Shown here: positions 1 through 43,619 of the stretch, piece after piece
How the letters are laid out: each line of letters opens with the position of its first letter
Numbering within the stretch: position 1 is the first letter of the stretch
Assembly (NCBI GenBank): GCA_031430855.1
Contig: JANPCG010000013.1
Location: 182,893-246,892, forward strand
Origin: Candidatus Kaiserbacteria bacterium
Lineage (GTDB): Bacteria > Patescibacteriota > Minisyncoccia > Phycocordibacterales > UBA918
Direction: 5' to 3'
DNA length: 64,000 nucleotides
Program-made: the position numbers and the translations under genes
The notes under the pieces: model-generated
What the model was told of the DNA's origin: nothing
The model's database searches: none
The model's input: only the letters and a program-made list of their open reading frames with translations

Positions 1-610
1 AGTTGAATACAGCGATTTTCAGTGTCCTGCGTGTGGTCAATTCTGGCCGGTAGTGGAAGAAGTTTTGGCCGAGTATGGTGATCGGATTAGTTTTGAATAT
101 AAACATTTCCCATTGATTCAAATTCATCCATTTGCGCAACCGGCAGCGTACGCTGCTGAAGCAGCCGGTCAACAAGGAAAGTTCTATGAATACGCCAATT
201 TACTTTTTAAGAATCAGGATACGTGGAGTAAGTCAGCTACCCCAGCCGCCTACTTTGCTGAGTACGCAGAAACTCTTGAGTTAGACATGGACAAATTTAT
301 GCGTCATCAGCGGGCTCCTCTTGTAAAAGACCATGTCCGATCTCAATTTAATGAAGCGAGAGCGCTCGGACTTACGGGAACACCATCGTTTTACCTGAAT
401 GGAGAACGAATGAACCTCACCACAATTGATGAATTTAAAGCTCAAATCGAAGCAGCCGTAAAACCTAATGTCGGATTTAACCTCGATGGCGCGACCCCAC
501 CACTCCAAATGATTCAGGTTGAAGGGGATGTTGAAACTGCTGTACCAGTACCAGGAGCTGAAGCTCCGGCTGAAACGAATGCTGCTCCAGCGGTTCAATT
601 TGGAATTTAA
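1..610 (+). CDS. DsbA-like thiol:disulfide oxidoreductase (thioredoxin fold), 5'-partial
   Basis: Reading frame is open from the window start. CPAC active-site motif is encoded at nt 25-36 (FQCPACGQFW), and the C-terminus is an Ala/Pro-rich tail. The ORF track starts at 53 only because of the first Met. Confidence 0.6.
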   Translation, partial: VEYSDFQCPACGQFWPVVEEVLAEYGDRISFEYKHFPLIQIHPFAQPAAYAAEAAGQQGKFYEYANLLFKNQDTWSKSATPAAYFAEYAETLELDMDKFMRHQRAPLVKDHVRSQFNEARALGLTGTPSFYLNGERMNLTTIDEFKAQIEAAVKPNVGFNLDGATPPLQMIQVEGDVETAVPVPGAEAPAETNAAPAVQFGI

Positions 611-616
611 TCAATA

Positions 617-2005
617 ATGATCGAAAAGCCCTCAAGAGATTCTTCACCGGAAGCCATTGATGAGTATGTTTTTCCGCAGATAGATCGGGTAAAAATACCG
701 GTGAGTCGTGATGTCCTGCCTGACGCGGATAACATAACTGAGCAGAAGAATAAATTTTTAGCTGGTGACGTTGACGAAATAAACTTTACGTACGAGAAAA
801 ATAAAGACATATGGTATGACGAAAAAGAAATAATTCTCCTTGATCTTAAGCATGAGCTCAGTGTAAGACGAGTTTTTCCGGAAATGATCAGGAAGGAGTA
901 TCTCTATGCAATAAATGAAAGACTTGCAAAAATTAGAATGCTGCGGGAGATTCAATTAGCTGAGAAAGATGGCCGTCAGGAGTATCATGCTCGTCGTTTC
1001 GATGCGTATTCTCGCTTCATATATGGTGGGCCACATCCAGAAATCTTTGCTAATGTCATAGCCACATTACAGAAAAAACTTCAAACAAAAGATGGTACTC
1101 CTGACCTGGTGGTTCAACAAGCATATGATCGACTACAAACAATTATCGAGTCCCATCAAAAACTTGACGTGCCAAATTCAATTCCGCCGTTTCAAGCAGA
1201 TGCGCCAAGTGAAGATACTGAAGATGTATTGGTCAATGCAGAGGAGTTAAAAAGAATATTTGATGAAGCAATTCAGGAGACCAGTCTGTCAGATGGGTGG
1301 AAAGTAATAATCGATTCAACCGGAAAACGTAATCATATTTCAGTAAACGGTGGGGTAAAGAAGATCAGAATACCTAACTCAGAACAGCTTGCCCTTCGAA
1401 TTGGGTCAAAGAAATTAACAAAACAAAAGATACTCGGGTTAATTGAACATGAAATTAAAACGCATGCTTTGAGACATCATAATGGTAGTCGCTCAGAGCT
1501 TAAATTGCTGGGGACTGGATTGAGAAACTACATTGAAGGTGAAGAAGGGTTGGCAACCTATCGTGAGCAGCAGGAAACAAAAGTTGATGATTATGCAGGG
1601 TTTAGTCTCTATTTTGCTGCTGGACTAGCTAAGGGACTCGATGGTGGGGGGGAGCGAGCGTTTGCTGCGGTTCATAAAATTTTAAAAGACTATTTTTTGG
1701 TTAATGAAACTGGTGTAACTGAAAGCGCAGCAGCGCAATCTGCTTGGAATGTATGTTTACGAATATTTAATGGCACACCCGGAAATATTCCTGGAGTAAT
1801 TTTTTCAAAAGATACTGTTTATCGTAAAGGAAATATAGCGACGTGGCAGCTGATGAACGCACATAGCTCAGATGATTTTGAGTTGACACTCAGCATATTG
1901 GATTTTGGAAAATTTGATCAAACGAATGAACGACAACGGCAGGTTGTTGCGTCGGTACGTCAGGGTATTACGAATGAAGCACTAGTTGCTCTTGAGGAAG
2001 AATAG
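617..2005 (+). CDS. DUF1704/MATCAP-like zinc carboxypeptidase (QEGLA-motif family), paralog 1
   Basis: HExxH (HEIKTH) followed by GEEGLATYREQQ and DYAG motifs. C-terminal block RIFNGTPGNIPGVIFSKDTVYRKGNIA is shared with the next ORF. Confidence 0.55.
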   Translation: MIEKPSRDSSPEAIDEYVFPQIDRVKIPVSRDVLPDADNITEQKNKFLAGDVDEINFTYEKNKDIWYDEKEIILLDLKHELSVRRVFPEMIRKEYLYAINERLAKIRMLREIQLAEKDGRQEYHARRFDAYSRFIYGGPHPEIFANVIATLQKKLQTKDGTPDLVVQQAYDRLQTIIESHQKLDVPNSIPPFQADAPSEDTEDVLVNAEELKRIFDEAIQETSLSDGWKVIIDSTGKRNHISVNGGVKKIRIPNSEQLALRIGSKKLTKQKILGLIEHEIKTHALRHHNGSRSELKLLGTGLRNYIEGEEGLATYREQQETKVDDYAGFSLYFAAGLAKGLDGGGERAFAAVHKILKDYFLVNETGVTESAAAQSAWNVCLRIFNGTPGNIPGVIFSKDTVYRKGNIATWQLMNAHSSDDFELTLSILDFGKFDQTNERQRQVVASVRQGITNEALVALEEE

Positions 2006-2031
2006 TTGTACTGTCTTCATGATTATAATCT

Positions 2032-3336
2032 ATGACACACTCACGTAACCTCAATTCACCGTATGATTCATTGATTTTTCCTTATATCTTAAGGAATAAC
2101 TCACAATACAGAAAGCGATTTCACATTAGTAACTACCATGAGTTCAAAGTTAATTTTATTTCAGGTACCGAAATTCCTGTAAAATATGATTTTTTATATG
2201 ATCAGAGGTATGAAAAAAAGCTTCAACGGTTAGTTGAATTAGAGACTAAAATTCTCCCACAATCTAATGTTGGAGAGCTTATTGAAAAGTTATATAAAGC
2301 AAAGATTGTTGAGAAGCGAAAGTTACTCATGCTCGTACGTTCTGCGTACGAGGCGCAGGCAAATACAACTGGTGGCTCAGAAGCTGCTCATATGTTTAAT
2401 CAACTTACGAAAGAAGTATTTGGAGCACCGTCACTTGATGTCTTTCGGCAATTAATGTCTACCATTAATGATGACATTAGTTCAGTTGGTTGGGAGTCAA
2501 AAAATTCTGAAGCGTATCATCGGTTTAGTCAAATTGCGCTGGCGAGCGAGGGTGAAAGCACCATTACAAAATTTACTCCAGCTCCACGTAAAGATTTGAG
2601 TGACCATAGCTCGTTTGTGTCAGAGGCGAACGAAGTGGTAGCCTTTTTTAAAGGGAAAATGTTAGCTCTGGGTTTACATGACTGGGCAGTACAAATTAGC
2701 GATAAACCAATTGAGAGTTTTAGAGTGTATGGAAAAAGGAAAGTACTACTGGTGCCGAAAACAAGTGTTATTAAAAGTCGTAAAAATGAACGACGTCTTT
2801 CCATTGATGTAATGGAAGGCTTGTTTGCTCATGAAGTCCTTACACACGTCATACGTGGTGTAAATGGTGCACAATCTGGACTCCTGTTACTGTCTCATGG
2901 TTTAGCTGGATATTTACCTGGGGAAGAGGGCATTGCAACTTTTCGAGAGCAGCAGTATAGCAGTGCGAAAGATTATGCTGGTAAAACGATGTATTTAGCC
3001 TTAGGCTTGGCCTACGGTCTTGACCGAAATGGACAACCAAGAACATTTAGAGAGGTGTATGAGATTTTAAGTGATTACTTTACCCTAAAGTTTGGCGGTT
3101 TTAGTAAAAAAGTACAAGCAAAAGCTTTTGTAACTTGTGCGAGAATTTTTGTCGTAAGTCCACATCAAAATATCCCTCTTATTTTTACTCGAGACATTGT
3201 CTATCGTGAAGGAAATATTGCAATAAACACTGCCGTACAAGCTGATGATACCCTGCTTGAAATATTTGATGTGGGTAAATTTAATCCCGTAAATACTGAA
3301 CACGTTGCAATACTAAAAAGTCTTAATATTATTTAA
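2032..3336 (+). CDS. DUF1704/MATCAP-like zinc carboxypeptidase, paralog 2
   Basis: HEVLTH plus GEEGIATFREQQ, DYAG and RIFVVSPHQNIPLIFTRDIVYREGNIA. Clear tandem paralog of 617..2005. Confidence 0.55.
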   Translation: MTHSRNLNSPYDSLIFPYILRNNSQYRKRFHISNYHEFKVNFISGTEIPVKYDFLYDQRYEKKLQRLVELETKILPQSNVGELIEKLYKAKIVEKRKLLMLVRSAYEAQANTTGGSEAAHMFNQLTKEVFGAPSLDVFRQLMSTINDDISSVGWESKNSEAYHRFSQIALASEGESTITKFTPAPRKDLSDHSSFVSEANEVVAFFKGKMLALGLHDWAVQISDKPIESFRVYGKRKVLLVPKTSVIKSRKNERRLSIDVMEGLFAHEVLTHVIRGVNGAQSGLLLLSHGLAGYLPGEEGIATFREQQYSSAKDYAGKTMYLALGLAYGLDRNGQPRTFREVYEILSDYFTLKFGGFSKKVQAKAFVTCARIFVVSPHQNIPLIFTRDIVYREGNIAINTAVQADDTLLEIFDVGKFNPVNTEHVAILKSLNII

Positions 3337-4091
3337 TCTCTTAGTACAATAGTTGTTACAACAGTATGATCGTATTTTTTGATACTCTCATATTTAAAAA
3401 GTGTGTCTTTGTGAACACAAAGGAATGCCTGGGTAATACATTTGGATGCTTCTTTTGGTTGTTCAAAAATTAACGTATCTGTGGTTACCTTGTCGGTGTC
3501 GAAGGTGTCGGTTTCATATGATCCGGTAGGAAGCTCAATCGAGCAACCTACGGATAGTTTAAAGAGCGCTAGTCCAATACTGGCATTTATTCCGTAAGGA
3601 TTTCTATCTTTACCATGAGAAATCTTTGAGTAGCCATTTTCTATAGCCCAGACATTCATTAAATATTCGGTATAGAGTGACGGTCCTGCAGGCAAACTAT
3701 TATGCTGCCATTCGTTAGGATAGATTCTGTACGCAAAGGTAAGACTCTTAGTTCTCGCTGCAAAAATAGTTGCTCCAACAGATATGTTGTTTTCCTTTAA
3801 TATAAGTATGTAGTAGGGATATTCAGCTTCTTTTCCTAACGTGGTTGCAAAAATGTCATTAACTTTCGGATTATTTTTAACTTGAATAGTAGCGTTGTAA
3901 AGAGGAGTAAACCACTCAAGATGAGTTGAGGTTAAAAGCTCAATGGAATAAGTGACGGTACTCGATTCAATTTTACGTAACGTGGTTTTTATTCGAGATA
4001 AATGATTTTTGCCAAAACCAGCAAATGCGTCATCGGTAAGTTTTTTTGCCCACATATGATGTGAAGGATACGTTATAATCATGAAAATCAA
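3333..4091 (-). CDS. FemAB/Acetyltransf_6-like GNAT-fold protein (putative aminoacyl or peptidyl transferase)
   Basis: C-terminal pattern LYTEYLMNVWAIENGY...NPYG...GLALFKLSVG resembles the Fem-family LLQWEAIKWAKENGY...GLYRFKKGFG block. Overlaps the stop of 2032..3336 by 4 bp. Confidence 0.45.
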   Translation of the reverse strand: MIFMIITYPSHHMWAKKLTDDAFAGFGKNHLSRIKTTLRKIESSTVTYSIELLTSTHLEWFTPLYNATIQVKNNPKVNDIFATTLGKEAEYPYYILILKENNISVGATIFAARTKSLTFAYRIYPNEWQHNSLPAGPSLYTEYLMNVWAIENGYSKISHGKDRNPYGINASIGLALFKLSVGCSIELPTGSYETDTFDTDKVTTDTLIFEQPKEASKCITQAFLCVHKDTLFKYESIKKYDHTVVTTIVLRD

Positions 4092-4206
4092 TCATAACAG
4101 AATTTATTACCATTGAGGTTAGTGAAAGTATTGTTATTTATAGTAAAATGTGTTATAGTACCGACTCCGAAACATTTAAAAATAAATATTTTTAAACCAC
4201 TACTTT

Positions 4207-5499
4207 TTGCAAATAAACAGATCCGTCATATTTACTTCTATGTCCTCCAAAAAAGCAATTTTGTTTGTTGAGCAGTATATGCCTAAAACACTTAAAAGTG
4301 TGAGGGATTATTTTGGTGATATTACACTCATAGTCTTGCGCGATATCAAAAATGAAAAAAATGAAAAAAACCGGCACTTTAAATCCGCTGATGTCATTTT
4401 ATATGTTGATTTTTCAAAGTCGTACAAAATTGCTGAAGCCCTCCTTCCGTATCAAGAATCGTTAATCGCAGTAACGGCTCGTGGCGAAGATGGTGCTAAC
4501 AAATTACGGGAGGTTATTCCACACGTACCCTATTTGCGCACGCCAACTGCTGAATCACTTGCGTGGGCAACTGATAAGTATGAGATGCGAAAACGTTTCT
4601 GGCTCTACGATAAAAAAATTACTCCAAAATTCACTAAAGTAAAAGAAAATACTAAAATTGAACGAGAACGAATAATACAAAAAATTAATTTTCCGATGGT
4701 CGTAAAACCAGCAAACTTGCAAGAGAGTATGTTGGTTGCAATATGTTTTCATGAAGAAGAATTAGAAAAAGTGTTACGAAATATCTTTCGACGCTTAAAA
4801 TCAGAGTATAAAAAATTCAACCGAACGCAGTTACCTACAATCATTTCAGAAGAGTATATGGATGGAGATATGTACTCTATTGATAGTTATGTAAACTCGC
4901 GAGGTAAAATATTTCATTGCCCGATGGTGCGGGTAAAAACTGGTCGTAACATTGGTCATGATGATTTTTATAATTACTTGCAAATTACACCAACTGCACT
5001 CAAAAAAGAATCAATCGAAAAGGCACATAACGTAGCCGAGCTGGCTGTTCATGCGCTTGGGTTGCGAAGCACTACTGCTCATATTGAATTGATGAAAATA
5101 GATGATGTTTGGAAGGTGATTGAAGTAGGTCCGCGTGTTGGTGGGTTCAGAGACTTACTGCATGAACTAAGTTGTGATATCGATCATTCTCTTAATGATG
5201 TATTAATTCGTGTACCAAAAAAGCCAATCATTCCAAAAAAATGTAAGGGTTTTGCTGCGGCGATGAAATGGTTTGCTAAGACCGAGGGGATTATTACCGA
5301 AATGAAAGGAATCAAAAAAATTGAGCAACTTGAGTCTTTCAATAGTATTGTCTTTAACAAAAAGATTGGTGACCGAGCACTATTCTCTAAAAATGGGGGA
5401 AAATCTATTTTTAACTTGTTTTTATTTAATGCTGACCGGGCAAAGTTACTTGCGGATATTCGCCGCGTTGAACAACTGATAACCATTAAAGTTAAATAA
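4207..5499 (+). CDS. ATP-grasp family ligase
   Basis: EEYMDGDMYSIDSYV and HIELMKIDDVWKVIEVGPRVGG (E-x-N/G-x-R-x-GG Mg/ATP site) are typical of ATP-grasp carboxylate-amine ligases. Confidence 0.7.
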   Translation: MQINRSVIFTSMSSKKAILFVEQYMPKTLKSVRDYFGDITLIVLRDIKNEKNEKNRHFKSADVILYVDFSKSYKIAEALLPYQESLIAVTARGEDGANKLREVIPHVPYLRTPTAESLAWATDKYEMRKRFWLYDKKITPKFTKVKENTKIERERIIQKINFPMVVKPANLQESMLVAICFHEEELEKVLRNIFRRLKSEYKKFNRTQLPTIISEEYMDGDMYSIDSYVNSRGKIFHCPMVRVKTGRNIGHDDFYNYLQITPTALKKESIEKAHNVAELAVHALGLRSTTAHIELMKIDDVWKVIEVGPRVGGFRDLLHELSCDIDHSLNDVLIRVPKKPIIPKKCKGFAAAMKWFAKTEGIITEMKGIKKIEQLESFNSIVFNKKIGDRALFSKNGGKSIFNLFLFNADRAKLLADIRRVEQLITIKVK

Positions 5500-5559
5500 G
5501 CCCTAATAAGAGGGGATAGGCTGACGCGCAATCTCTCGTGATTTTGTTATGATACGGGT

Positions 5560-6339
5560 ATGTTCCGTACCCGCGATTTTCTTTTGTTTTTGATTGCAAT
5601 TACCTTTTTAGTATTGGCAATTACGTTTACGATTTTACTTACTGACCACAGTTCGGTTGGTAATGGTATTTCAATTGACACCGAACTCGAAACCACAACG
5701 GCTACCTATACGGCTGAAGTTATTGCTCCCCAAATTGCGCGGGCGGATCGGTTGGCCTCAATGCGGCGAAAGTTAAGTGAAATCACCGCTGAATTCCGTT
5801 CTCCAGAGCCAGAAATTATGCCAGAAGAAAGTACTGAACCTACTGAAGTAGACGATGTGGGTATAATCGTTGAAGCTCAAGCGGTAGAACTCTGTGGTGC
5901 GCAGCGGATACAGACAATTGCGTGGCCATCCGTCCCGCAGCAGTATGAAATTCGAAATGGTAGTCGGGTATTTTATACGTCTGCACCGGGAGTTGTAGTT
6001 GGGACGAGTACTGCACCAGTACTTACGGAAACAATTTTATTATCACTCCCGGTGCGAGCTGATGCGTTACCCTTTAGTTCATGTATTGCCTCGAATGTGG
6101 TGGCAGTAACACCAACTGGAATGCCGATTCGAAATAGTGATTATAAGCAGTATCAAGGACTCGGTGAGGGAACCCTGATTGGCTTTACGCTTGATGGCTT
6201 TGAGTTATATGGGCAAACTAGCAGTCTTGATACTGATGCCTGTGGTGGTGCGGTCGTGAGTGGTGTCTATCGTTACTATCTCTCAGCTGAGCGTCCGGGT
6301 GTGATTGGCTGTTTTGCGGGTATTCCGGCGGTACTCTAG
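5560..6339 (+). CDS. hypothetical membrane-anchored protein
   Basis: N-terminal TM helix followed by an acidic linker and a Gly/Val-rich domain. No recognisable family. Confidence 0.4.
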   Translation: MFRTRDFLLFLIAITFLVLAITFTILLTDHSSVGNGISIDTELETTTATYTAEVIAPQIARADRLASMRRKLSEITAEFRSPEPEIMPEESTEPTEVDDVGIIVEAQAVELCGAQRIQTIAWPSVPQQYEIRNGSRVFYTSAPGVVVGTSTAPVLTETILLSLPVRADALPFSSCIASNVVAVTPTGMPIRNSDYKQYQGLGEGTLIGFTLDGFELYGQTSSLDTDACGGAVVSGVYRYYLSAERPGVIGCFAGIPAVL

Positions 6340-6348
6340 CGATATCCT

Positions 6349-6942
6349 ATGAAATCAATTCTGGCGTTATTGGCAGACTTTGCGAATGGTATTTTTGCCG
6401 TGTTGCTGGCGTCGTACGTGTATCAGACAGAACCCCTCTGGTGGTATTTCATTGTTGGCATGGTTTTGGCAATGTTCCCTGACATTGATGCGGTGCCCGA
6501 ATTGATTGCTCGGGGTAAGGTGGCGGCAAGTGCATTGTATTCCAAAGATCATCGTACTTTCTTACATTATCCAATCTTGTCAGTTTCAATTGGCCTTATA
6601 GCCTGGTATGTATTTGGATTCTGGGGGTTAGTACTCTTGGTCGCGTTTACACTCCATTTAATAAATGATTTATATGGTACTGGCTGGGGTATTCCGTTGC
6701 TCTATCCGTTTACCCGTAAGCGCTATAAGTGTAATCCTGAGTTCTTTTTTAAACGCCGTACACTTCCTGCTGCGACGACTGTTTCAAGTTGGTCAGAGAG
6801 TGAATTACAACAAGCCATAAAGGTGAGTGGTAACGATAATTGGCTTGCTGATACCTATTTAACCCTAAATTGGATTTCGATTACCGAATATTCACTGTTT
6901 ATTATAGCGATAATAGGTATGACAGTCAGTTTGCTATACTAA
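6349..6942 (+). CDS. membrane-bound metal-dependent hydrolase (DUF457/YdjM-like)
   Basis: Multi-TM protein with the H..NDLYGTGWGIPLLYPF segment typical of DUF457. Confidence 0.5.
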   Translation: MKSILALLADFANGIFAVLLASYVYQTEPLWWYFIVGMVLAMFPDIDAVPELIARGKVAASALYSKDHRTFLHYPILSVSIGLIAWYVFGFWGLVLLVAFTLHLINDLYGTGWGIPLLYPFTRKRYKCNPEFFFKRRTLPAATTVSSWSESELQQAIKVSGNDNWLADTYLTLNWISITEYSLFIIAIIGMTVSLLY

Positions 6943-6946
6943 ACCC

Positions 6947-6991
6947 ATGAATACAGATAAGACATTTCCAGAGAGATTTTATTGGGGTGAG
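6947..6991 (+). pseudogene. relic duplicate of the GH1 gene 5' end
   Basis: ATGAATACAGATAAGACATTTCCAGAGAGATTTTATTGGGGTGA (MNTDKTFPERFYWG) versus the true start at 7203, ATGAATAAACAATTTCCACAAGGATTCTACTGGGGTGC (MNKQFPQGFYWG). Confidence 0.5.
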
Positions 6992-7080
6992 AAAAGGGAT
7001 GGGACCCTTTTCGCAAGAGGTTGCCAGCTATTTTGGAAAAATAGCGACAACCTGTACAGCTTCTGTAAGAAGAGAAAACT
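6985..7080 (-). repeat. structured repeat family 1, copy A (reverse orientation)
   Basis: Reverse complement aligns with copies at 31738-31899 and 24515-24595: CTTACAGAAGCTGTACAGGTTGTCG ... TTTTTCCAAAA.AGCTGGCAA ... CTTGCGA-[8-bp hairpin 6991-7012]-TCAC. Confidence 0.6.
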
Positions 7081-7202
7081 CTCGACCCGCTTCCGCAAGA
7101 CCGTGCCAGATATTTCTGAAGCGAAGCGAACAGAATTAACGACACGGTGTACCGTTTCTGTAAGAAACAGACATCAATCAAATTATTTGAAATACTGAAA
7201 CT

Positions 7203-8429
7203 ATGAATAAACAATTTCCACAAGGATTCTACTGGGGTGCAGCCACCGCCTCTTACCAAGTCGAAGGAGGCATCGAAAACACCGATTGGGCCGAAGCCGC
7301 TAGAGCGGGGCGAGTGCCGCAGTGTGGTCTCGCGTGTGATCACTATAATCGGTATGAAGCAGATTTTGATATTGCAAAAAGTCTTGGACATACTGCCCAC
7401 CGATTCTCGGTCGAGTGGGCGCGGATTGAACCTCTGCCCGGTCAATTCAATCAGGAAGCCATTGCTCATTACCGTAGCGTTCTGGCAGCATTAAAACTGC
7501 GCGGCATTACACCGTTTGTTACTTTGTGGCACTTCACGTTACCACTCTGGTTTTCAAAGGCGGGTGGTTTTGAATCGTCTGATGCGCCAGCGATTTTTTC
7601 GCGCTATGCGGCTTTTGTTGTTAATGAATTGGGTGATTATTGTAGTCATTTTGCAACCCTTAATGAGCCAAATGTCTATGCGACACACGGCTATCTCTAT
7701 GGTGCCTGGCCACCGTTCAAGCGGGGTAAGTTTTTATGGAAAAAAATCGGTAAAGAAGATGGCACTTCAGAAAAAACTCACGCTAATGCGCAGTTCATTA
7801 ATTTTTTTGCGTATATGAGAGTCGTGCGTAATTTGGCGAGAGCGCATAATAAGGCTTATGATGCTATTAAAGCGTTGCGACCAGAAGCTCAGATTAGTGT
7901 GGTGAAACACGTACATTATTTTAATGCTGATACCCACTTCTTAAATCGTTTCAAAGCTCGAGTAGCTGCTCAGTTGCAAACCTATAATTTTATGAATCGG
8001 GTGGCAGGCCAGTGTGATGAAATAGGTTTAAATTATTATCGCCATACAAAATTTGGTGATAATCAAAATTACCTTCATACCGATATGGAGTGGGACGTAT
8101 ACCCGAATGGTATTTTTGATGCCATCATGATGCTCCATCGCTACAGAAAACCAATATTTATTGCTGAAGCTGGTTTAGCTGATGAAAACGATGACCTCAG
8201 ACCAGATTACATTCGAGTACAAGTCATGGCTGTATATAGAGCAATCAAAGCTGGCGCTGACGTACGGGGGCATATGTACTGGTCACTGTTAGATAATTAC
8301 GAATGGGCACTTGGGTTCGGGAAGCGGTTTGGGCTTATCGCTATTAATTATGAGACTCAAGAGAGAACGGTGCGTCCTTCAGCATACGTGTATAAGCAAA
8401 TTTGTGAGAGCAATGCCGTAGTAGAATAA
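7203..8429 (+). CDS. glycoside hydrolase family 1 (beta-glucosidase-like)
   Basis: N-terminal FPQGFYWGAATASYQVEGG signature. TLNEP acid/base motif. I-A-E-A-G at the nucleophile position (ITENG-like). Confidence 0.85.
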   Translation: MNKQFPQGFYWGAATASYQVEGGIENTDWAEAARAGRVPQCGLACDHYNRYEADFDIAKSLGHTAHRFSVEWARIEPLPGQFNQEAIAHYRSVLAALKLRGITPFVTLWHFTLPLWFSKAGGFESSDAPAIFSRYAAFVVNELGDYCSHFATLNEPNVYATHGYLYGAWPPFKRGKFLWKKIGKEDGTSEKTHANAQFINFFAYMRVVRNLARAHNKAYDAIKALRPEAQISVVKHVHYFNADTHFLNRFKARVAAQLQTYNFMNRVAGQCDEIGLNYYRHTKFGDNQNYLHTDMEWDVYPNGIFDAIMMLHRYRKPIFIAEAGLADENDDLRPDYIRVQVMAVYRAIKAGADVRGHMYWSLLDNYEWALGFGKRFGLIAINYETQERTVRPSAYVYKQICESNAVVE

Positions 8430-8436
8430 GGGCATA

Positions 8437-9417
8437 ATGGCCTGGATATTTCTCGCAACGGCTGGACAGTTCTTGAATGCGTTGGTGGCATTTTTAGATA
8501 AGTATATTGTCTCTGATGAGACTGCATTGCCAAAACCCTTTGTATACGCTTTTTACTCGTGTATTTTGACCGGGGGTTGGATTGTCATTTATCTGATTGG
8601 GTACATCCCCGGCTTACAAGCAATTGGGGTGCCGCATTTATCTAACGTAGTGACGCCGTCAATTCAAGTGGTGGCGATGGCATTCCTCTCAGCCTACACC
8701 TTTTTTATGGCCCTGGTCTCAATGTATTCAGCCTTGCGGAGTGCAGAAGCGGTCAATGTAATGCCAGTTATTGGAGTCATTTCAGCGATTTCATCTTTGG
8801 GAATGGTGTACTTATTTTTGGATGTAACGTTAGAACCAAATTTTATTTGGGGTATTATCGTATTGTCTTTGGGGACGCTCTTAGTTGCTCAAACATTACC
8901 CCAGATTGAAACAGTTATTCATGTCATTCACAGCGGGGTGTTCTTTGCGCTTCACTTTATTACCATGAAAGGACTTTTCCAGGAAACCAGTTTTGATGAT
9001 GGATTCTTTTGGTCTCGGCTTTGTTTTGTACTTTTCGCTTTGTCACTCTTGTTGGTTCCTACCTATTATAAAAAAATTCGAGAACAAACTGGAGCCACTA
9101 CCAAGAAAACCGGCTTTCTGGTCGTATCAACAAAGATTTTGGCTGGGGTGGCTGCGTTCATGATTCTTAAAGCAACAGATATGGGCGACGTTGCAGTGGT
9201 GCAGGCACTTGATGGGGTTAAGTTTGTATTTATTTTACTCATTTCTATATTCTTCGGAGCACTTTTACCTGATTCTGCAGTTGAACATGTTACCAAGCCA
9301 AGCGAAGTCATTCGGCGCGTTCTGTACGTTTGTGTGATTGTGGTGGGGTACTTTATTCTGTTTGGAAGTGTTGATTATTTAAACTTGTTTACACATGTAT
9401 ATGCGCCGAATTCGTAA
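8437..9417 (+). CDS. polytopic membrane protein (possibly DMT/EamA-like transporter)
   Basis: About 10 predicted hydrophobic helices, located between two glycosidase genes. Confidence 0.35.
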   Translation: MAWIFLATAGQFLNALVAFLDKYIVSDETALPKPFVYAFYSCILTGGWIVIYLIGYIPGLQAIGVPHLSNVVTPSIQVVAMAFLSAYTFFMALVSMYSALRSAEAVNVMPVIGVISAISSLGMVYLFLDVTLEPNFIWGIIVLSLGTLLVAQTLPQIETVIHVIHSGVFFALHFITMKGLFQETSFDDGFFWSRLCFVLFALSLLLVPTYYKKIREQTGATTKKTGFLVVSTKILAGVAAFMILKATDMGDVAVVQALDGVKFVFILLISIFFGALLPDSAVEHVTKPSEVIRRVLYVCVIVVGYFILFGSVDYLNLFTHVYAPNS

Positions 9418-10423
9418 GATACTATTGTGGCTGTTCATAATTTCGCTTATTCTTGTGGGTGTGGTGGCGTGGCTGGCGTATAAACCAGTACCAGAAACTA
9501 TTTCATACGGGATGTCGTTTAATACGGTCTATGCTCGCGAGCTGGGTCTTGATTGGAAAGAGACGTATGACGCAATTTTGCATGATTTAGGCGTTCGAAA
9601 GTTACGGTTAGCCGCTCACTGGCCGATGATTGAACCGGCTCGTGATGTCTATAATTTTGAAGAACTTGATTATCAAATTACTGAGGCAGAAAAGGTCGGA
9701 GCAACAGTGGTACTGGCCGTCGGGAGAAGACTGCCACGTTGGCCAGAGTGTCATGTGCCGGGATGGATTAAAGAACGCGCCTGGGAAGAACAAAAAACTG
9801 AAATTCGACAGTATATTGAAGTAGTCGTAAATCGCTACAAGACAAGTCCGGCCGTAGTGTATTGGCAGGTTGAAAATGAACCGTACTTAACCGTGTTCGC
9901 TTATGAACATTGCGGCGAGTTTGATGAAGCCTTTTTAACTGAAGAAGTAGCTCTTGTTAAATCACTTGATCCAACTCGTCCAACTCTAGTGACTGACAGC
10001 GGAAACTTGGGCACGTGGGCAGGCGCCTATCGTCATGGTGATGCCTTTGGAACGAGTGTGTATGTTCATTTTTGGAATCCTGAATTAGGTCAGTTCCGTA
10101 CGTTACTACCGCCATGGTTTTATCGTGCTAAAGAAAAGGTGATTGCGCTCTATTATGGAGAAAAACCCACCTTTTTAATTGAACTTTCGGCTGAGCCGTG
10201 GTTAGTTGCCCCGATTGTTGAGGTTCCTCTTGATGTGCAATATTCACGGATGAATGTAGAAAAATTTGAAGATATTTTGGAGTATGCGCGGAAAACACGT
10301 TACGAAACCCAATATTTGTGGGGAGCAGAGTGGTGGTATTGGTTACATCTAAAAAATGAATCAGCGATGTGGAATCGAGGTAAAGAATTATATGCGGGTA
10401 CAGCCCCTATGGTAGTCGAGTAG
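9395..10423 (+). CDS. membrane-anchored glycoside hydrolase, clan GH-A (family uncertain, GH5/GH42-like)
   Basis: N-terminal TM helix. Contains WQVENEPYL (NEP acid/base motif of clan-A TIM-barrel glycosidases). Confidence 0.5.
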   Translation: MYMRRIRKILLWLFIISLILVGVVAWLAYKPVPETISYGMSFNTVYARELGLDWKETYDAILHDLGVRKLRLAAHWPMIEPARDVYNFEELDYQITEAEKVGATVVLAVGRRLPRWPECHVPGWIKERAWEEQKTEIRQYIEVVVNRYKTSPAVVYWQVENEPYLTVFAYEHCGEFDEAFLTEEVALVKSLDPTRPTLVTDSGNLGTWAGAYRHGDAFGTSVYVHFWNPELGQFRTLLPPWFYRAKEKVIALYYGEKPTFLIELSAEPWLVAPIVEVPLDVQYSRMNVEKFEDILEYARKTRYETQYLWGAEWWYWLHLKNESAMWNRGKELYAGTAPMVVE

Positions 10424-31612: not shown

Positions 31613-31630
31613 CTTTATTCCATTCAGTCG

Positions 31631-31717
31631 CGGAGGGTGGGAGATTCGAACTCCCGATCAGATTGCTCCGATACTGCCTTTCCAAGGCAGCGCACTAGGC
31701 CACTATGCGAACCCTCC
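31631..31717 (-). tRNA. tRNA-Ser (anticodon GGA)
   Basis: Reverse complement folds as a cloverleaf: acceptor GGAGGGT/ACCCTCC, anticodon loop cTTGGAAa (GGA), long variable arm, T-arm GGGAGTTCGAATCTCCC. No encoded CCA. Confidence 0.85.
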
Positions 31718-43533: not shown

Positions 43534-43547
43534 AAAGATTTTTACGG

Positions 43548-43619
43548 CTCCCCGGGCAGGATTCGAACCTGCGACCAATCGATTAACAGTCGACTGCTCT
43601 ACCGCTGAGCTACCGAGGA
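43548..43619 (-). tRNA. tRNA-Asn (anticodon GUU)
   Basis: Reverse complement TCCTCGG-TA-GCTC-AGCGGTA-GAGC-A-GTCGA-cTGTTAa-TCGAT-TGGTC-GCAGG-TTCGAAT-CCTGC-CCGGGGA-G. Canonical 72-nt cloverleaf, no encoded CCA. Confidence 0.85.

What the first reader, a model, noticed from the sequence alone, without database searches (positions are those of the whole stretch)
617..5499. Candidate peptide-tail ligation and trimming module: two MATCAP/DUF1704-like peptidases, a Fem/GNAT-like transferase and an ATP-grasp ligase
Two tandem paralogs (617-2005 and 2032-3336) share HExxH (HEIKTH and HEVLTH), a downstream GEEG(L/I)AT(Y/F)REQQ block (the QEGLA-family hallmark; the conserved Glu is a plausible third zinc ligand, gluzincin-style) and a conserved C-terminal RIF..P.NIP.IF..D.VYR.GNIA segment. 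Convergent with them is a protein whose C-terminus matches the Fem/Acetyltransf_6 block (W..IE.GY...G......GLALFKLSVG). Divergent from that protein is an ATP-grasp ligase with a canonical IEVGPRVGG site. From established knowledge, DUF1704 is the fold of the tubulin detyrosinase MATCAP, and bacterial QEGLA-motif proteins co-occur with RimK-like ATP-grasp ligases; Fem-type GNAT enzymes add amino acids from aminoacyl-tRNA. A locus combining two amino-acid-adding chemistries with two trimming carboxypeptidases suggests a reversible C-terminal tailing cycle on an unknown protein or peptide, analogous to a tyrosination/detyrosination cycle. This specific four-gene arrangement is not a described system to my knowledge. 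A truncated DsbA-like gene sits immediately upstream, so the locus may continue beyond the window.
Basis: partly seen in the sequence, partly recalled or inferred. Interest (0 to 1): 0.8.

Follow-up and report, generated by a model that had tools for sequence, protein, structure and literature searches.

The report
Variable peptide ligase–peptidase cassette in Paceibacteria

Summary
The four ORFs and all quoted motifs are real. Both plus-strand paralogs pass Pfam's MATCAP/DUF1704 threshold. Their metal motif is HExxxH, the MATCAP hallmark, not HExxH. The minus-strand protein ("U250") has no Pfam, NCBIfam or PDB sequence match. A confident AlphaFold model is a GNAT fold whose best structural neighbours are aminoacyl-tRNA-dependent transferases (FemX, Sbb17, MprF). 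The ATP-grasp is of the L-amino-acid-ligase type, not RimK/TTL.

Comparative genomics changes the picture. The conserved unit is ATP-grasp + U250, adjacent in 22 of 24 distinct loci, four of them outside the shared synteny. The MATCAP genes are accessory (7 of 24 loci). Copies A and B are only 31% identical. In other lineages the same slot holds U250×2, RimK-type ligases, MATCAP alone or a split cyanophycin-synthetase-like set, and no unassigned ORF of 100 aa or more. Elsewhere MATCAP homologues mostly sit beside RimK/ATPgrasp_ST/7TM_transglut genes. A distant locus (L098) repeats the combination U250-like + ATP-grasp + 2 MATCAP, with an LCP cell-wall ligase embedded.

Best reading: a lineage-variable, cytoplasmic build-and-trim cassette for a non-ribosomal peptide, probably on a cell-envelope precursor. 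It is a new variant of a known kind.

The parts
53..610 (+). C-terminal 185 aa of a DsbA-like thioredoxin-fold protein. It is the conserved left boundary of the variable slot and probably not part of the chemistry.
   Evidence: Pfam Thioredoxin_4 50.3 bits and DSBA 42.3 bits. The full gene is 252 aa in the source contig. It flanks the slot in most loci.
617..2005 (+). MATCAP-A: a MATCAP/DUF1704-family metallopeptidase (462 aa, pI 5.6). HExxxH = HEIKTH at nt 1448-1465, GEEGLATYREQQ at 1538-1573, FSKDTVYRKGNIA at 1802-1840.
   Evidence: PF08014 52.6 bits, cut-off 27. Alignment to human MATCAP1 7z5g. 29 homologue clusters, all carrying PF08014. Nearest relatives (L028, L024) abut RimK-type ligases or stand alone.
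2032..3336 (+). MATCAP-B: a second MATCAP-family metallopeptidase (434 aa, pI 9.2), 31% identical to A. HEVLTH at nt 2830-2847, GEEGIATFREQQ at 2920-2955, FTRDIVYREGNIA at 3184-3222. Its stop codon overlaps the stop of the convergent U250 gene.
   Evidence: PF08014 44.5 bits. Alignment to 7z5g and 7z6s. AlphaFold model pLDDT 90. Closest relative L094 (38% identity) sits in the same DsbA-MATCAP-U250-ATP-grasp position. Stop-codon overlap.
3333..4055 (-). U250: a 240-aa protein (the ORF extends to TTG 4091) that founds an unannotated GNAT-fold family resembling Fem-type aminoacyl-tRNA transferases. SHGKDRNPYG at nt 3591-3620, GLALFKLSVG at 3546-3575. The codon for the only family-invariant residue, Lys166, is at 3558-3560.
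4056..4239 (.). 184-bp divergent intergenic region between U250 and the ATP-grasp. It presumably holds both promoters.
   Evidence: Two sigma-70-like matches at 4122-4159 (+), but the scan as a whole found fewer sites than shuffled sequence, so this is not significant.
4240..5499 (+). L-amino-acid-ligase-type ATP-grasp ligase (419 aa from ATG 4240; the ORF starts at TTG 4207; pI 9.6). IEVGPRVGG at nt 5119-5145. It is the highly conserved anchor of the cassette.
   Evidence: PF13535 ATP-grasp_4 69.9 bits. Best solved relatives are LAL BL00235/3VOT (E=1.7e-9), BacD and Ddl. 1552 homologue clusters, with the top 120 all at least 61% identical. The orthologue in L033 passes LAL_C2 at 35.3 bits.
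5560..6339 (+). YHYH-like protein (259 aa) with an N-terminal hydrophobic anchor. It is the conserved right-hand neighbour of the ATP-grasp within the Paceibacteria synteny and is absent when the pair occurs in other contexts.
   Evidence: Weak PF14240, E=0.0056. Present downstream of the ATP-grasp in most syntenic loci and missing in L012, L020 and L023.

Best explanation
**What it is.** The window holds one version of a lineage-variable cassette of cytoplasmic amide-bond enzymes. The cassette is anchored on a highly conserved L-amino-acid-ligase-type ATP-grasp in Paceibacteria-like CPR bacteria.

**Shown**
- ATP-grasp + U250 is the conserved pair.
- U250 is a new GNAT-fold family whose nearest structures are aminoacyl-tRNA-dependent transferases.
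- Both MATCAP paralogues keep the HExxxH, EEGxA and DxVY catalytic blocks.
- In other lineages the same slot holds 1-2 U250 genes, RimK-type ligases, 0-2 MATCAP genes, or a split cyanophycin-synthetase-like trio. No locus has an unassigned ORF of 100 aa or more in the slot.

**Inferred mechanism**
1. The ATP-grasp activates a carboxylate as an acyl-phosphate and joins it to an amine.
2. U250 uses its invariant Lys166 on helix alpha-4, preceded by Phe165 as in FemX Phe304?/Lys305 and DhpH-C Phe328/Lys329, to transfer an aminoacyl group from aminoacyl-tRNA to a free amine of the same acceptor.
3. MATCAP-B, and perhaps MATCAP-A, act as zinc carboxypeptidases that remove C-terminal residue(s). This would limit or edit the length of the peptide.

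**Most likely acceptor (inferred, about 0.4).** A cytoplasmic cell-envelope precursor peptide, such as a peptidoglycan stem or cross-bridge on UDP-MurNAc-peptide or lipid II, rather than a protein tail.

**Step-wise confidence**
- Enzyme typing: about 0.9.
- Functional coupling of ATP-grasp and U250: about 0.8.
- MATCAP coupling to that pair: about 0.6.
- Envelope-precursor acceptor: about 0.4.
For: **Typing**
- (MATCAP and ATP-grasp).
- (invariant Lys, no acetyl-CoA loop).

**Pair coupling**
- The two genes are adjacent in 22 of 24 distinct loci.
- This includes contexts outside the shared synteny: L012; L020 beside the ribosomal-protein operon; L016 and L023 on the same strand.

**MATCAP coupling**
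- When present, MATCAP always abuts U250 or the ATP-grasp (WIN, L008-10, L033, L094, L108).
- MATCAP homologues sit beside ATP-grasp ligases in 34 of 84 loci.
- L098, a distant lineage, has U250-like (hhalign 98.8%) -> MATCAP -> ATP-grasp -> LCP -> MATCAP, all co-directional.

**Thematic purity of the slot:** no unassigned ORF of 100 aa or more in any locus.

**Envelope link**
- The three ligase classes rotating through the slot (ATP-grasp, Fem-like GNAT, Mur-ligase-like in L110) are the three classes that build peptidoglycan peptides (PMC2922099; PMC4155827).
- Tandem U250 copies recall the sequential Fem enzymes.
- An LCP gene is embedded in L098.
- RimK/MATCAP clusters abut PBP1A, GT4 and FemAB-MurE in L025, L027 and L038.
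- The ATP-grasp shows housekeeping-level conservation in reduced genomes.
Against: - No substrate has been identified and there is no biochemistry.
- The equivalence of K166 with FemX K305 rests on helix position and motif, not on a residue-level superposition.
- The only characterised MATCAP substrates are protein C-terminal tails.
- Foldseek did not link the MATCAP-B model to MATCAP.
- L110's Mur-ligase-like protein matches cyanophycin synthetase better than MurE.
- Most loci come from one clade with strong overall synteny, and many were found through U250 itself, which biases the sample. Among the five loci found independently of U250, three carry it (L094, L108, L109).
- The clade grouping MATCAP-B with the other U250-adjacent MATCAPs has only 28% bootstrap support.
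Confidence: 0.4

Rival explanations
1. The module post-translationally tails and trims a protein. An ATP-grasp adds residues to a C-terminus or side-chain carboxylate, as RimK does on S6 and TTL/TTLL do on tubulin. The MATCAP enzymes remove them. U250 acts like L/F-transferase or ATE1 on a protein N-terminus or on a lysine.
For: - The only characterised MATCAP activities are removal of C-terminal Tyr and Glu from protein tails, plus deglutamylation (PMC10499314).
- RimK-type ligases occur beside the pair in L014, L016, L018 and L023, and beside the MATCAP-A relative in L028.
- U250's size (240 aa) resembles that of L/F-transferase (228 aa chain).
Against: - The window's ATP-grasp is LAL/Ddl-like and fails the RimK and TTL models. 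The window encodes no RimK-type ligase.
- No candidate substrate gene is conserved next to the pair. The YHYH-like neighbour is lost outside the synteny.
- Fem-type chemistry cannot extend a C-terminus, so there is no single shared 'tail'.
- FemX, Sbb17 and MprF outrank the protein transferases in both fold searches.
Confidence: 0.2
2. The cassette makes and processes a free small peptide or a poly-amino-acid, such as a di- or tripeptide metabolite, an osmolyte or a cyanophycin-like storage polymer. The LAL-type ATP-grasp makes a dipeptide. U250 adds an N-terminal residue from aminoacyl-tRNA, as PacB, DhpH/DhpK and Orf11/Sba18 do. MATCAP degrades or matures the product.
For: - The closest solved relatives of the ATP-grasp make free dipeptides (BL00235, BacD).
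- Fem-like GNATs act in natural-product pathways (PMC12945691), and Sbb17/Sba18 rank 2-4 in Foldseek.
- L110 fills the slot with cyanophycin-synthetase-like pieces.
Against: - The ATP-grasp is a core, highly conserved syntenic gene in very small genomes, which is unusual for secondary metabolism.
- No exporter, immunity or precursor-supply gene is linked to the pair across contexts.
- The LCP, PBP1A and GT4 associations of related clusters point to the envelope instead.
Confidence: 0.15
3. Only ATP-grasp + U250 is a functional unit. On this view the two MATCAP genes are unrelated passengers that landed in a recombination-prone gap next to the DsbA gene, and they serve another ligase encoded elsewhere, such as a RimK-type enzyme.
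For: - MATCAP is absent from 17 of 24 loci with the pair or the anchor.
- MATCAP-A's nearest relatives sit with RimK-type genes or alone (L028, L024, L026).
- Most of the MATCAP family associates with RimK/ATPgrasp_ST/7TM_transglut rather than with U250.
- The tree grouping the U250-adjacent MATCAPs is weakly supported.
Against: - The slot contains no unassigned ORF of 100 aa or more in any locus, which argues against a neutral landing pad.
- MATCAP abuts the pair or the anchor in seven distinct loci, including L033, where it replaces U250 directly upstream of the ATP-grasp.
- L098 repeats U250-like + ATP-grasp + two MATCAPs in a distant lineage.
Confidence: 0.2

Closest known systems
Eukaryotic tubulin tyrosination/detyrosination and (de)glutamylation: TTL/TTLL ATP-grasp ligases with MATCAP/TMCP (KIAA0895L/KIAA0895) metallocarboxypeptidases
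   Same: An ATP-grasp ligase is encoded alongside MATCAP-family peptidases. The HExxxH, EEGLA and F(S/T)(K/R)DxVY blocks align with human MATCAP1.
   Different: - The ligase here is LAL/Ddl-like, not TTL/TTLL or RimK.
- There is no tubulin-like substrate.
- An additional tRNA-type transferase is the ligase's real conserved partner.
- Fold similarity to solved MATCAP was not recovered by Foldseek.
Bacterial QEGLA (TIGR02421) / RimK-related ligase / 7TM_transglut / ATPgrasp_ST gene neighbourhood. The neighbourhood is predicted and uncharacterised; that it is previously noted is from my own knowledge of TIGRFAM notes and Iyer et al. 2009, which I could not read here.
   Same: It shares the same peptidase family next to ATP-grasp amidoligases. 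I observed this neighbourhood directly for the window's MATCAP homologues in 34 of 84 loci.
   Different: - The window has no RimK, ATPgrasp_ST or 7TM_transglut gene.
- The partner ligase family differs and a Fem-like GNAT is present.
- Both paralogues score far below the TIGR02421 cut-off (44.7 and 49.2 bits against 338.65).
Fem-type aminoacyl-tRNA-dependent GNAT transferases: FemX/FemA/FemB/MurM for peptidoglycan bridges; PacB, DhpH-C/DhpK, VlmA and Orf11/Sba18/Sbb17 in natural products; MprF/aaPGS; ATE1 and L/F-transferase
   Same: - GNAT fold with these enzymes as the top structural neighbours.
- A single invariant Lys preceded by an aromatic residue on helix alpha-4, like FemX Lys305 and DhpH-C Phe328-Lys329.
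- No acetyl-CoA pyrophosphate loop.
- Tandem paralogues occur in some genomes.
   Different: - No sequence-level relation.
- About 240-250 aa, with one complete GNAT core (residues ~34-174) plus a small N/C-terminal subdomain, instead of two full GNAT domains of 330-420 aa.
- Donor and acceptor are both unknown.
Peptidoglycan side-chain synthesis that combines an ATP-grasp D-aspartate ligase (Aslfm/AslA) with Fem transferases in Gram-positive bacteria
   Same: The logic is the same: an ATP-grasp adds one residue by acyl-phosphate chemistry, tRNA-dependent GNAT enzymes add others, and the composition varies between lineages (PMC4155827; PMC2922099).
   Different: - I could not test homology of the window's ATP-grasp to Aslfm.
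- No racemase is linked.
- MATCAP-type peptidases are not part of any described bridge pathway.
L-amino-acid ligases (BL00235, BacD/YwfE, DdaF, LdmS)
   Same: ATP-grasp_4 core, the 'IEVG(A/P)R(I/V)GG' Mg/ATP-site block, and the best PDB sequence match. The LAL_C2 domain is detected in the L033 orthologue.
   Different: - Only about 40 bits to 3VOT.
- LAL_C2 is below threshold in the window protein (12.8 bits against 29.4).
- Substrates are unknown.
- It is a conserved core gene of a CPR clade rather than a secondary-metabolism gene.

Membership tests
MATCAP / DUF1704 (Pfam PF08014) | Match to the family HMM above the curated gathering score | tested here: met
   A scores 52.6 bits and B 44.5 bits against a cut-off of 27. 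All 29 homologue clusters carry PF08014. Coverage of the 365-position model is partial: 112-219 for A and 163-331 for B.
MATCAP / DUF1704 (Pfam PF08014) | Degenerate gluzincin metal motif HExxxH with the catalytic Glu | tested here: met
   HEIKTH and HEVLTH are present, with no HExxH in either protein. H, E and H are invariant in 28 family members. The motif definition comes from PMC10499314 and PMC13522474.
MATCAP / DUF1704 (Pfam PF08014) | Downstream EEGLA block (candidate third metal ligand) and F(S/T)(K/R)DxVY block aligned with human MATCAP1 | tested here: met
   The phmmer alignments to 7z5g and 7z6s place all three blocks in register. The family profile hits only MATCAP1 in the PDB, at E=1.9e-6. 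Which Glu is the ligand was not verified.
MATCAP / DUF1704 (Pfam PF08014) | Three-dimensional fold similar to solved MATCAP (7z5g/7z5h/7z6s) | tested here: inconclusive
MATCAP / DUF1704 (Pfam PF08014) | Metallocarboxypeptidase activity on C-terminal residues | not testable with these tools
   Needs an enzyme assay.
TIGR02421 'QEGLA motif protein' (NCBIfam hypothetical equivalog) | Score at or above the curated cut-off of 338.65 bits | tested here: not met
   44.7 bits (A) and 49.2 bits (B). They belong to the same superfamily but are not members of that equivalog.
Fem-type aminoacyl-tRNA-dependent GNAT transferases | GNAT fold with aminoacyl-tRNA-dependent enzymes as nearest structures | tested here: met
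Fem-type aminoacyl-tRNA-dependent GNAT transferases | Sequence match to FemAB / Acetyltransf_6 / FemAB_like / DUF2156 models | tested here: not met
   No hit for the window protein. Among 101 family members there are only sub-threshold hits: Acetyltransf_6 at E=0.05-0.18 and FemAB_like at E=0.0045. hhalign against a real FemAB (L025) gives probability 0.2%.
Fem-type aminoacyl-tRNA-dependent GNAT transferases | Two tandem GNAT domains forming the acceptor site | tested here: not met
   The protein is 240 aa. The DSSP assignment of the model shows one complete GNAT core (b1 34-40 ... a4 158-168, b6 172-174) plus a small subdomain formed by residues 1-29 and 190-240. This is my reading of the secondary structure.
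Fem-type aminoacyl-tRNA-dependent GNAT transferases | Single catalytic Lys on the C-terminal helix, preceded by an aromatic residue (FemX Lys305; DhpH-C Phe328-Lys329) | tested here: inconclusive
   K166 is the only invariant residue in the 46-sequence wide alignment, and position 165 is F, Y or H in 44 of 46. By eye, the block IGLALFKLSVG resembles VGVTNFKLGFA of the L025 FemAB and LLQFKQRFGF of L098. Structural equivalence to K305 was not verified residue by residue. Literature.
Fem-type aminoacyl-tRNA-dependent GNAT transferases | Lack of the acetyl-CoA pyrophosphate-binding Q/RxxGxG/A loop | tested here: met
   0 of 55 and 0 of 46 family sequences have the motif in the beta4-alpha3 region.
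Fem-type aminoacyl-tRNA-dependent GNAT transferases | Use of aminoacyl-tRNA as the acyl donor | not testable with these tools
   Needs an in vitro assay with charged tRNA versus acyl-CoA.
L-amino-acid-ligase-type ATP-grasp (ATP-grasp_4 / LAL) | ATP-grasp_4 HMM above threshold, with LALs as the nearest solved relatives | tested here: met
   PF13535 scores 69.9 bits against a cut-off of 27. 3VOT (BL00235) matches at E=1.7e-9, and BacD at 1.5e-4.
L-amino-acid-ligase-type ATP-grasp (ATP-grasp_4 / LAL) | LAL C-terminal domain 2 (PF18603) | tested here: inconclusive
   The window protein scores 12.8 bits against a cut-off of 29.4. The orthologue in L033 scores 35.3 bits, and one homologue cluster carries PF18603.
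RimK / TTL-type protein-tailing ATP-grasp | Match to the RimK (PF08443, TIGR00768) or TTL models | tested here: not met
   PF08443 scores 12.9 bits against a cut-off of 21. TIGR00768 scores 13.3 bits against 143.4. There is no TTL hit.

The most novel reading that the evidence does not exclude
U250 would be a previously unrecognised, compact (single-GNAT) family of aminoacyl-tRNA-dependent transferases specific to CPR bacteria. Working with a dedicated ATP-grasp ligase, it would build a lineage-variable peptide branch on peptidoglycan or another envelope precursor. The adjacent MATCAP proteins would then be the first bacterial members of the tubulin-detyrosinase family with an identifiable pathway, acting as cytoplasmic editors of that branch. 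This would imply that the MATCAP/ATP-grasp 'write-erase' pairing arose in bacterial cell-wall or peptide metabolism before eukaryotes recruited it for tubulin.
Probability: 0.25. Interest if true: 0.75.

Novelty: new variant of a known kind. Interest (0 to 1): 0.55.

Why it matters
- **Bacterial MATCAP function.** Bacterial MATCAP/DUF1704 proteins have no known function, and their eukaryotic relatives were only recently identified as tubulin tail-trimming enzymes. A defined bacterial partner set gives a concrete way to find their ancestral substrate.
- **A new transferase family.** U250 has about 460 representatives at 50% identity, is unannotated, and none carries a precomputed Pfam domain. 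It would add a compact architecture to the aminoacyl-tRNA-dependent transferases.
- **CPR envelope chemistry.** CPR bacteria are uncultured, and their envelope chemistry is almost unknown. A slot that swaps Fem-like, RimK-like, cyanophycin-synthetase-like and MATCAP genes next to one conserved ligase is a ready-made natural experiment for linking genotype to cell-wall or peptide chemistry.
- **If it is not a module.** If the MATCAP genes prove to be passengers, the finding reduces to a new conserved ligase-transferase pair. That would still be useful but modest.

Tried and rejected
- **Defence or phage origin.** PADLOC gave no hits and PHROGs only noise. Rejected.
- **Sequence link of U250 to known families.** All of the following were negative or sub-threshold: Pfam and NCBIfam on the protein; Pfam on 55 and on 46 family members; phmmer and a family profile against PDB sequences, where the only hits were CNOT1 at E~0.02, judged spurious; hhalign against a genuine FemAB from L025; and tblastn against plasmids.
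- **A clade of U250-associated MATCAPs.** The NJ tree recovers it, but bootstrap support is only 28/100, and 65/100 for the A-clade. I do not rely on it.
- **Upstream extension of the module beyond the window.** Rejected: upstream is DsbA and then a divergent methyltransferase.
- **RimK-type, ATPgrasp_ST, 7TM_transglut or FemAB genes elsewhere in the 64-kb window.** None found.
- **Promoter and terminator scans of 1-6500.** No better than shuffled sequence.
- **Candidate substrate gene conserved with the pair.** None found. The YHYH-like neighbour is lost outside the synteny.
- **Iyer et al. 2009 amidoligase paper.** It could not be retrieved, so prior description of ATP-grasp/GNAT/peptidase neighbourhoods rests on my memory and on PMC2922099.
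- **Public names for the four proteins.** None are on record.

Full report
**1. The observation**

The region contains the four ORFs described, and every quoted motif is present. The window matches a metagenome-assembled genome, GCA_043735715.1 (contig JAYTDW010000001.1). Upstream of the window that contig carries only the rest of a 252-aa DsbA-like gene, followed by a divergently oriented methyltransferase. The module therefore does not extend beyond the window.

The gene calls in that assembly start the minus-strand gene at ATG 4055 (240 aa) and the ATP-grasp at ATG 4240 (419 aa). The stop codons of MATCAP-B and the convergent gene overlap.

**2. The two peptidases**

Both pass Pfam's MATCAP model: 52.6 and 44.5 bits against a cut-off of 27. 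Both fall far below the NCBIfam QEGLA equivalog cut-off.

Single-sequence and profile comparisons with PDB sequences hit only human MATCAP1 (KIAA0895L). The profile E-value is 1.9e-6. The HEIGTH, EEGLAS and FSKDQVY blocks of MATCAP1 align to HEIKTH/HEVLTH, EEGLAT/EEGIAT and FSKDTVY/FTRDIVY.

It is in fact HExxxH, the published peculiarity of this family (PMC10499314; PMC13522474). H, E, H, the EEG-A block and D/Y/G of the C-terminal block are invariant across 28 homologues, so both copies look catalytically competent.

The two copies are only 31% identical.

**3. The minus-strand protein (U250)**

It has no hit in Pfam, NCBIfam, PADLOC, PHROGs, PDB sequences or plasmids. It nevertheless belongs to a sizeable family: 66 clusters by word-indexed search and 463 representatives at 50% identity by exhaustive profile search. 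Nearly all are about 250 aa.

In a wide family alignment the only invariant residue is Lys166. It lies on the helix equivalent to GNAT alpha-4 and is preceded by Phe or Tyr. In FemX the sole catalytic residue is Lys305, and in DhpH-C it is Lys329 preceded by Phe328 (PMC12945691).

None of 101 family sequences has the acetyl-CoA Q/RxxGxG/A loop.

Against membership, there is no sequence-level relation to Fem families, and the protein has one full GNAT core rather than two. I therefore treat U250 as a new family that probably works like a Fem transferase, not as a member of the Fem family.

**4. The ATP-grasp**

It matches ATP-grasp_4 at 69.9 bits. Its nearest solved relatives are the L-amino-acid ligase BL00235 (E=1.7e-9), BacD and D-Ala-D-Ala ligases, and it fails the RimK models.

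It is strikingly conserved. There are 1552 homologue clusters, and the best 120 are all at least 61% identical. U250 relatives fall to 36% and MATCAP relatives to 30%.

**5. Neighbourhoods**

I gathered loci in three ways:
- through U250, using a genome scan and exact look-ups;
- through MATCAP;
- through the ATP-grasp.

I then scored all ORFs with profiles and queries built from the window and from these loci.

Among 24 distinct loci that hold the ATP-grasp, U250 is adjacent in 22. Sampling is biased towards U250; of the five loci found independently of it, three have it. The adjacency survives outside the shared Paceibacteria synteny: in L012, in L020 (next to the ribosomal-protein operon), and in L016 and L023 (same strand).

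The content of the slot between the DsbA-like gene and the ATP-grasp varies as follows:

| Slot content | Loci |
|---|---|
| U250 ×1 | eight loci |
| U250 ×2 | L004, L005, L109 |
| RimK-type + U250 ×2 | L018 |
| U250 + RimK-type | L014 |
| MATCAP + U250 | L008-10, L094, L108 |
| MATCAP ×2 + U250 | the window |
| MATCAP alone | L033 |
| Split cyanophycin-synthetase-like trio (Mur-ligase-type M-domain protein, E=2e-42, plus two G-domain-like ATP-grasps) | L110 |

RimK-type genes also flank the pair in L016 and L023. No locus has an unassigned ORF of 100 aa or more in the slot.

**6. The MATCAP side**

Of 84 MATCAP loci, 34 have RimK-type, ATPgrasp_ST or 7TM_transglut genes nearby, although many contigs are short. 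Four have U250 and/or the LAL-type ATP-grasp.

An NJ tree places window copy B with the MATCAPs that abut U250 or the ATP-grasp. It places copy A with relatives that abut RimK-type genes or stand alone. Bootstrap support is weak, at 28 and 65 of 100. Only L094 (38% identity, same position) is clearly B's relative.

A distant locus, L098, carries a co-directional run of genes:
1. a U250-like gene (hhalign 98.8%, E=1.3e-16);
2. MATCAP;
3. an ATP-grasp of the RimK/ATPgrasp_ST type;
4. a LytR-CpsA-Psr gene;
5. a second MATCAP.

This is an independent recurrence of the window's enzyme combination.

**7. Interpretation**

The recurrent, thematically pure combinations argue that these enzymes act on a common non-ribosomal peptide substrate. 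ATP-grasp + U250 would be the core, and MATCAP, RimK-like or CphA-like enzymes would be lineage-specific elaborations.

The chemistry constrains the model. ATP-grasp ligases activate carboxylates, Fem-type enzymes acylate amines, and MATCAP removes C-terminal residues. A branched or N-extended peptide that is trimmed at its C-terminus fits better.

I favour a cell-envelope precursor peptide as acceptor, at about 0.4, for these reasons:
- ATP-grasp, Fem-type GNAT and Mur-type ligases are exactly the three classes that build peptidoglycan peptides (PMC2922099; PMC4155827).
- Tandem U250 copies resemble the sequential Fem enzymes.
- An LCP gene is embedded in L098.
- RimK/MATCAP clusters abut PBP1A, GT4 and FemAB-MurE.
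- The ATP-grasp behaves like a housekeeping gene of reduced genomes.

All four window proteins begin without an N-terminal hydrophobic stretch (sequences; no signal-peptide predictor was run). That is consistent with action on cytoplasmic precursors.

The rivals are protein tailing (0.2), a free peptide or polymer (0.15), and MATCAP genes as passengers (0.2). None can be excluded without biochemistry.

**8. Novelty**

Searches of the held literature found no description of DUF1704/MATCAP with this partner set, nor of an LAL-type ATP-grasp paired with a Fem-like transferase in Patescibacteria.

The general idea of ATP-grasp/GNAT amidoligase neighbourhoods with peptidases, and the QEGLA-RimK association, are known. 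I therefore rate this a new variant of a known kind. Its new elements are the U250 family and the variable slot.

Noticed in passing
L098:3407-9305 (metagenome contig Ga0208373_1001458): Co-directional run: U250-like (306 aa) -> MATCAP (463 aa) -> RimK/ATPgrasp_ST-type ATP-grasp (318 aa) -> LytR_cpsA_psr (275 aa) -> MATCAP (458 aa). This is an independent recurrence of the window's enzyme set, with a cell-wall glycopolymer ligase embedded in it.
   Followed up: partly
L110:2560-5984 (GCA_047638595.1, JBLIMJ010000007.1): The slot beside the conserved ATP-grasp is filled by what looks like a cyanophycin synthetase split into three genes. One is a Mur-ligase-type M-domain protein (E=2e-42 to CphA residues 479-860). 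The other two are G-domain-like ATP-grasps. There is no U250 and no MATCAP.
   Followed up: partly
L025:2200-8335, L027:1954-8329, and about 20 further loci: In many CPR contigs the MATCAP homologue ends a cluster 7TM_transglut - ATPgrasp_ST/RimB-like - RimK-like - GT4 glycosyltransferase. It is often followed by a class A PBP, with FemAB and MurE a few kb on in L025 and L038. This cluster is uncharacterised and may be envelope-related.
   Followed up: partly
window 2001-6000: The module itself (MATCAP-B, U250, ATP-grasp) is AT-richer (GC 0.37-0.38) than most of the window (0.42-0.50). Two further dips occur at 28-30 kb (0.394) and 40-42 kb (0.402). Because the ATP-grasp is a conserved core gene, the dip is not simple evidence of recent transfer.
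   Followed up: no
window 3333-3336: The convergent genes MATCAP-B and U250 overlap by their stop codons (shared TTAA), leaving no room for a terminator between them. The same tight packing is seen in L008-L010.
   Followed up: no
window 5560-10423 and the syntenic loci L004-L022, L108-L110: A conserved block runs downstream of the ATP-grasp across Paceibacteria loci: membrane-anchored YHYH-like protein, YdjM, GH1 beta-glucosidase-like, EamA-like 10-TM protein and a GH42/cellulase-like protein. An RNase_H_2/PolB-exonuclease-like gene is inserted in some loci. This strong synteny confounds any neighbourhood argument within this clade.
   Followed up: partly
window 31630-31717 (-) and 43546-43619 (-): The only RNA genes found in the 64-kb window are tRNA-Ser(GGA) and tRNA-Asn(GTT). 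There are no other Rfam matches at gathering thresholds.
   Followed up: yes
L023:8552-11585 ('Gammaproteobacteria' MAG) and L110 ('Acidimicrobiales' MAG): Two loci carrying the ATP-grasp come from MAGs labelled as non-CPR phyla. L110 at least shares the Paceibacteria GH1-EamA-GH42 synteny, so the bin labels are probably wrong. L023 (ATP-grasp -> divergent U250-like -> RimK with a RimK_N domain, beside rpiB/rpe/trxB-like genes) may be a genuinely different lineage.
   Followed up: no
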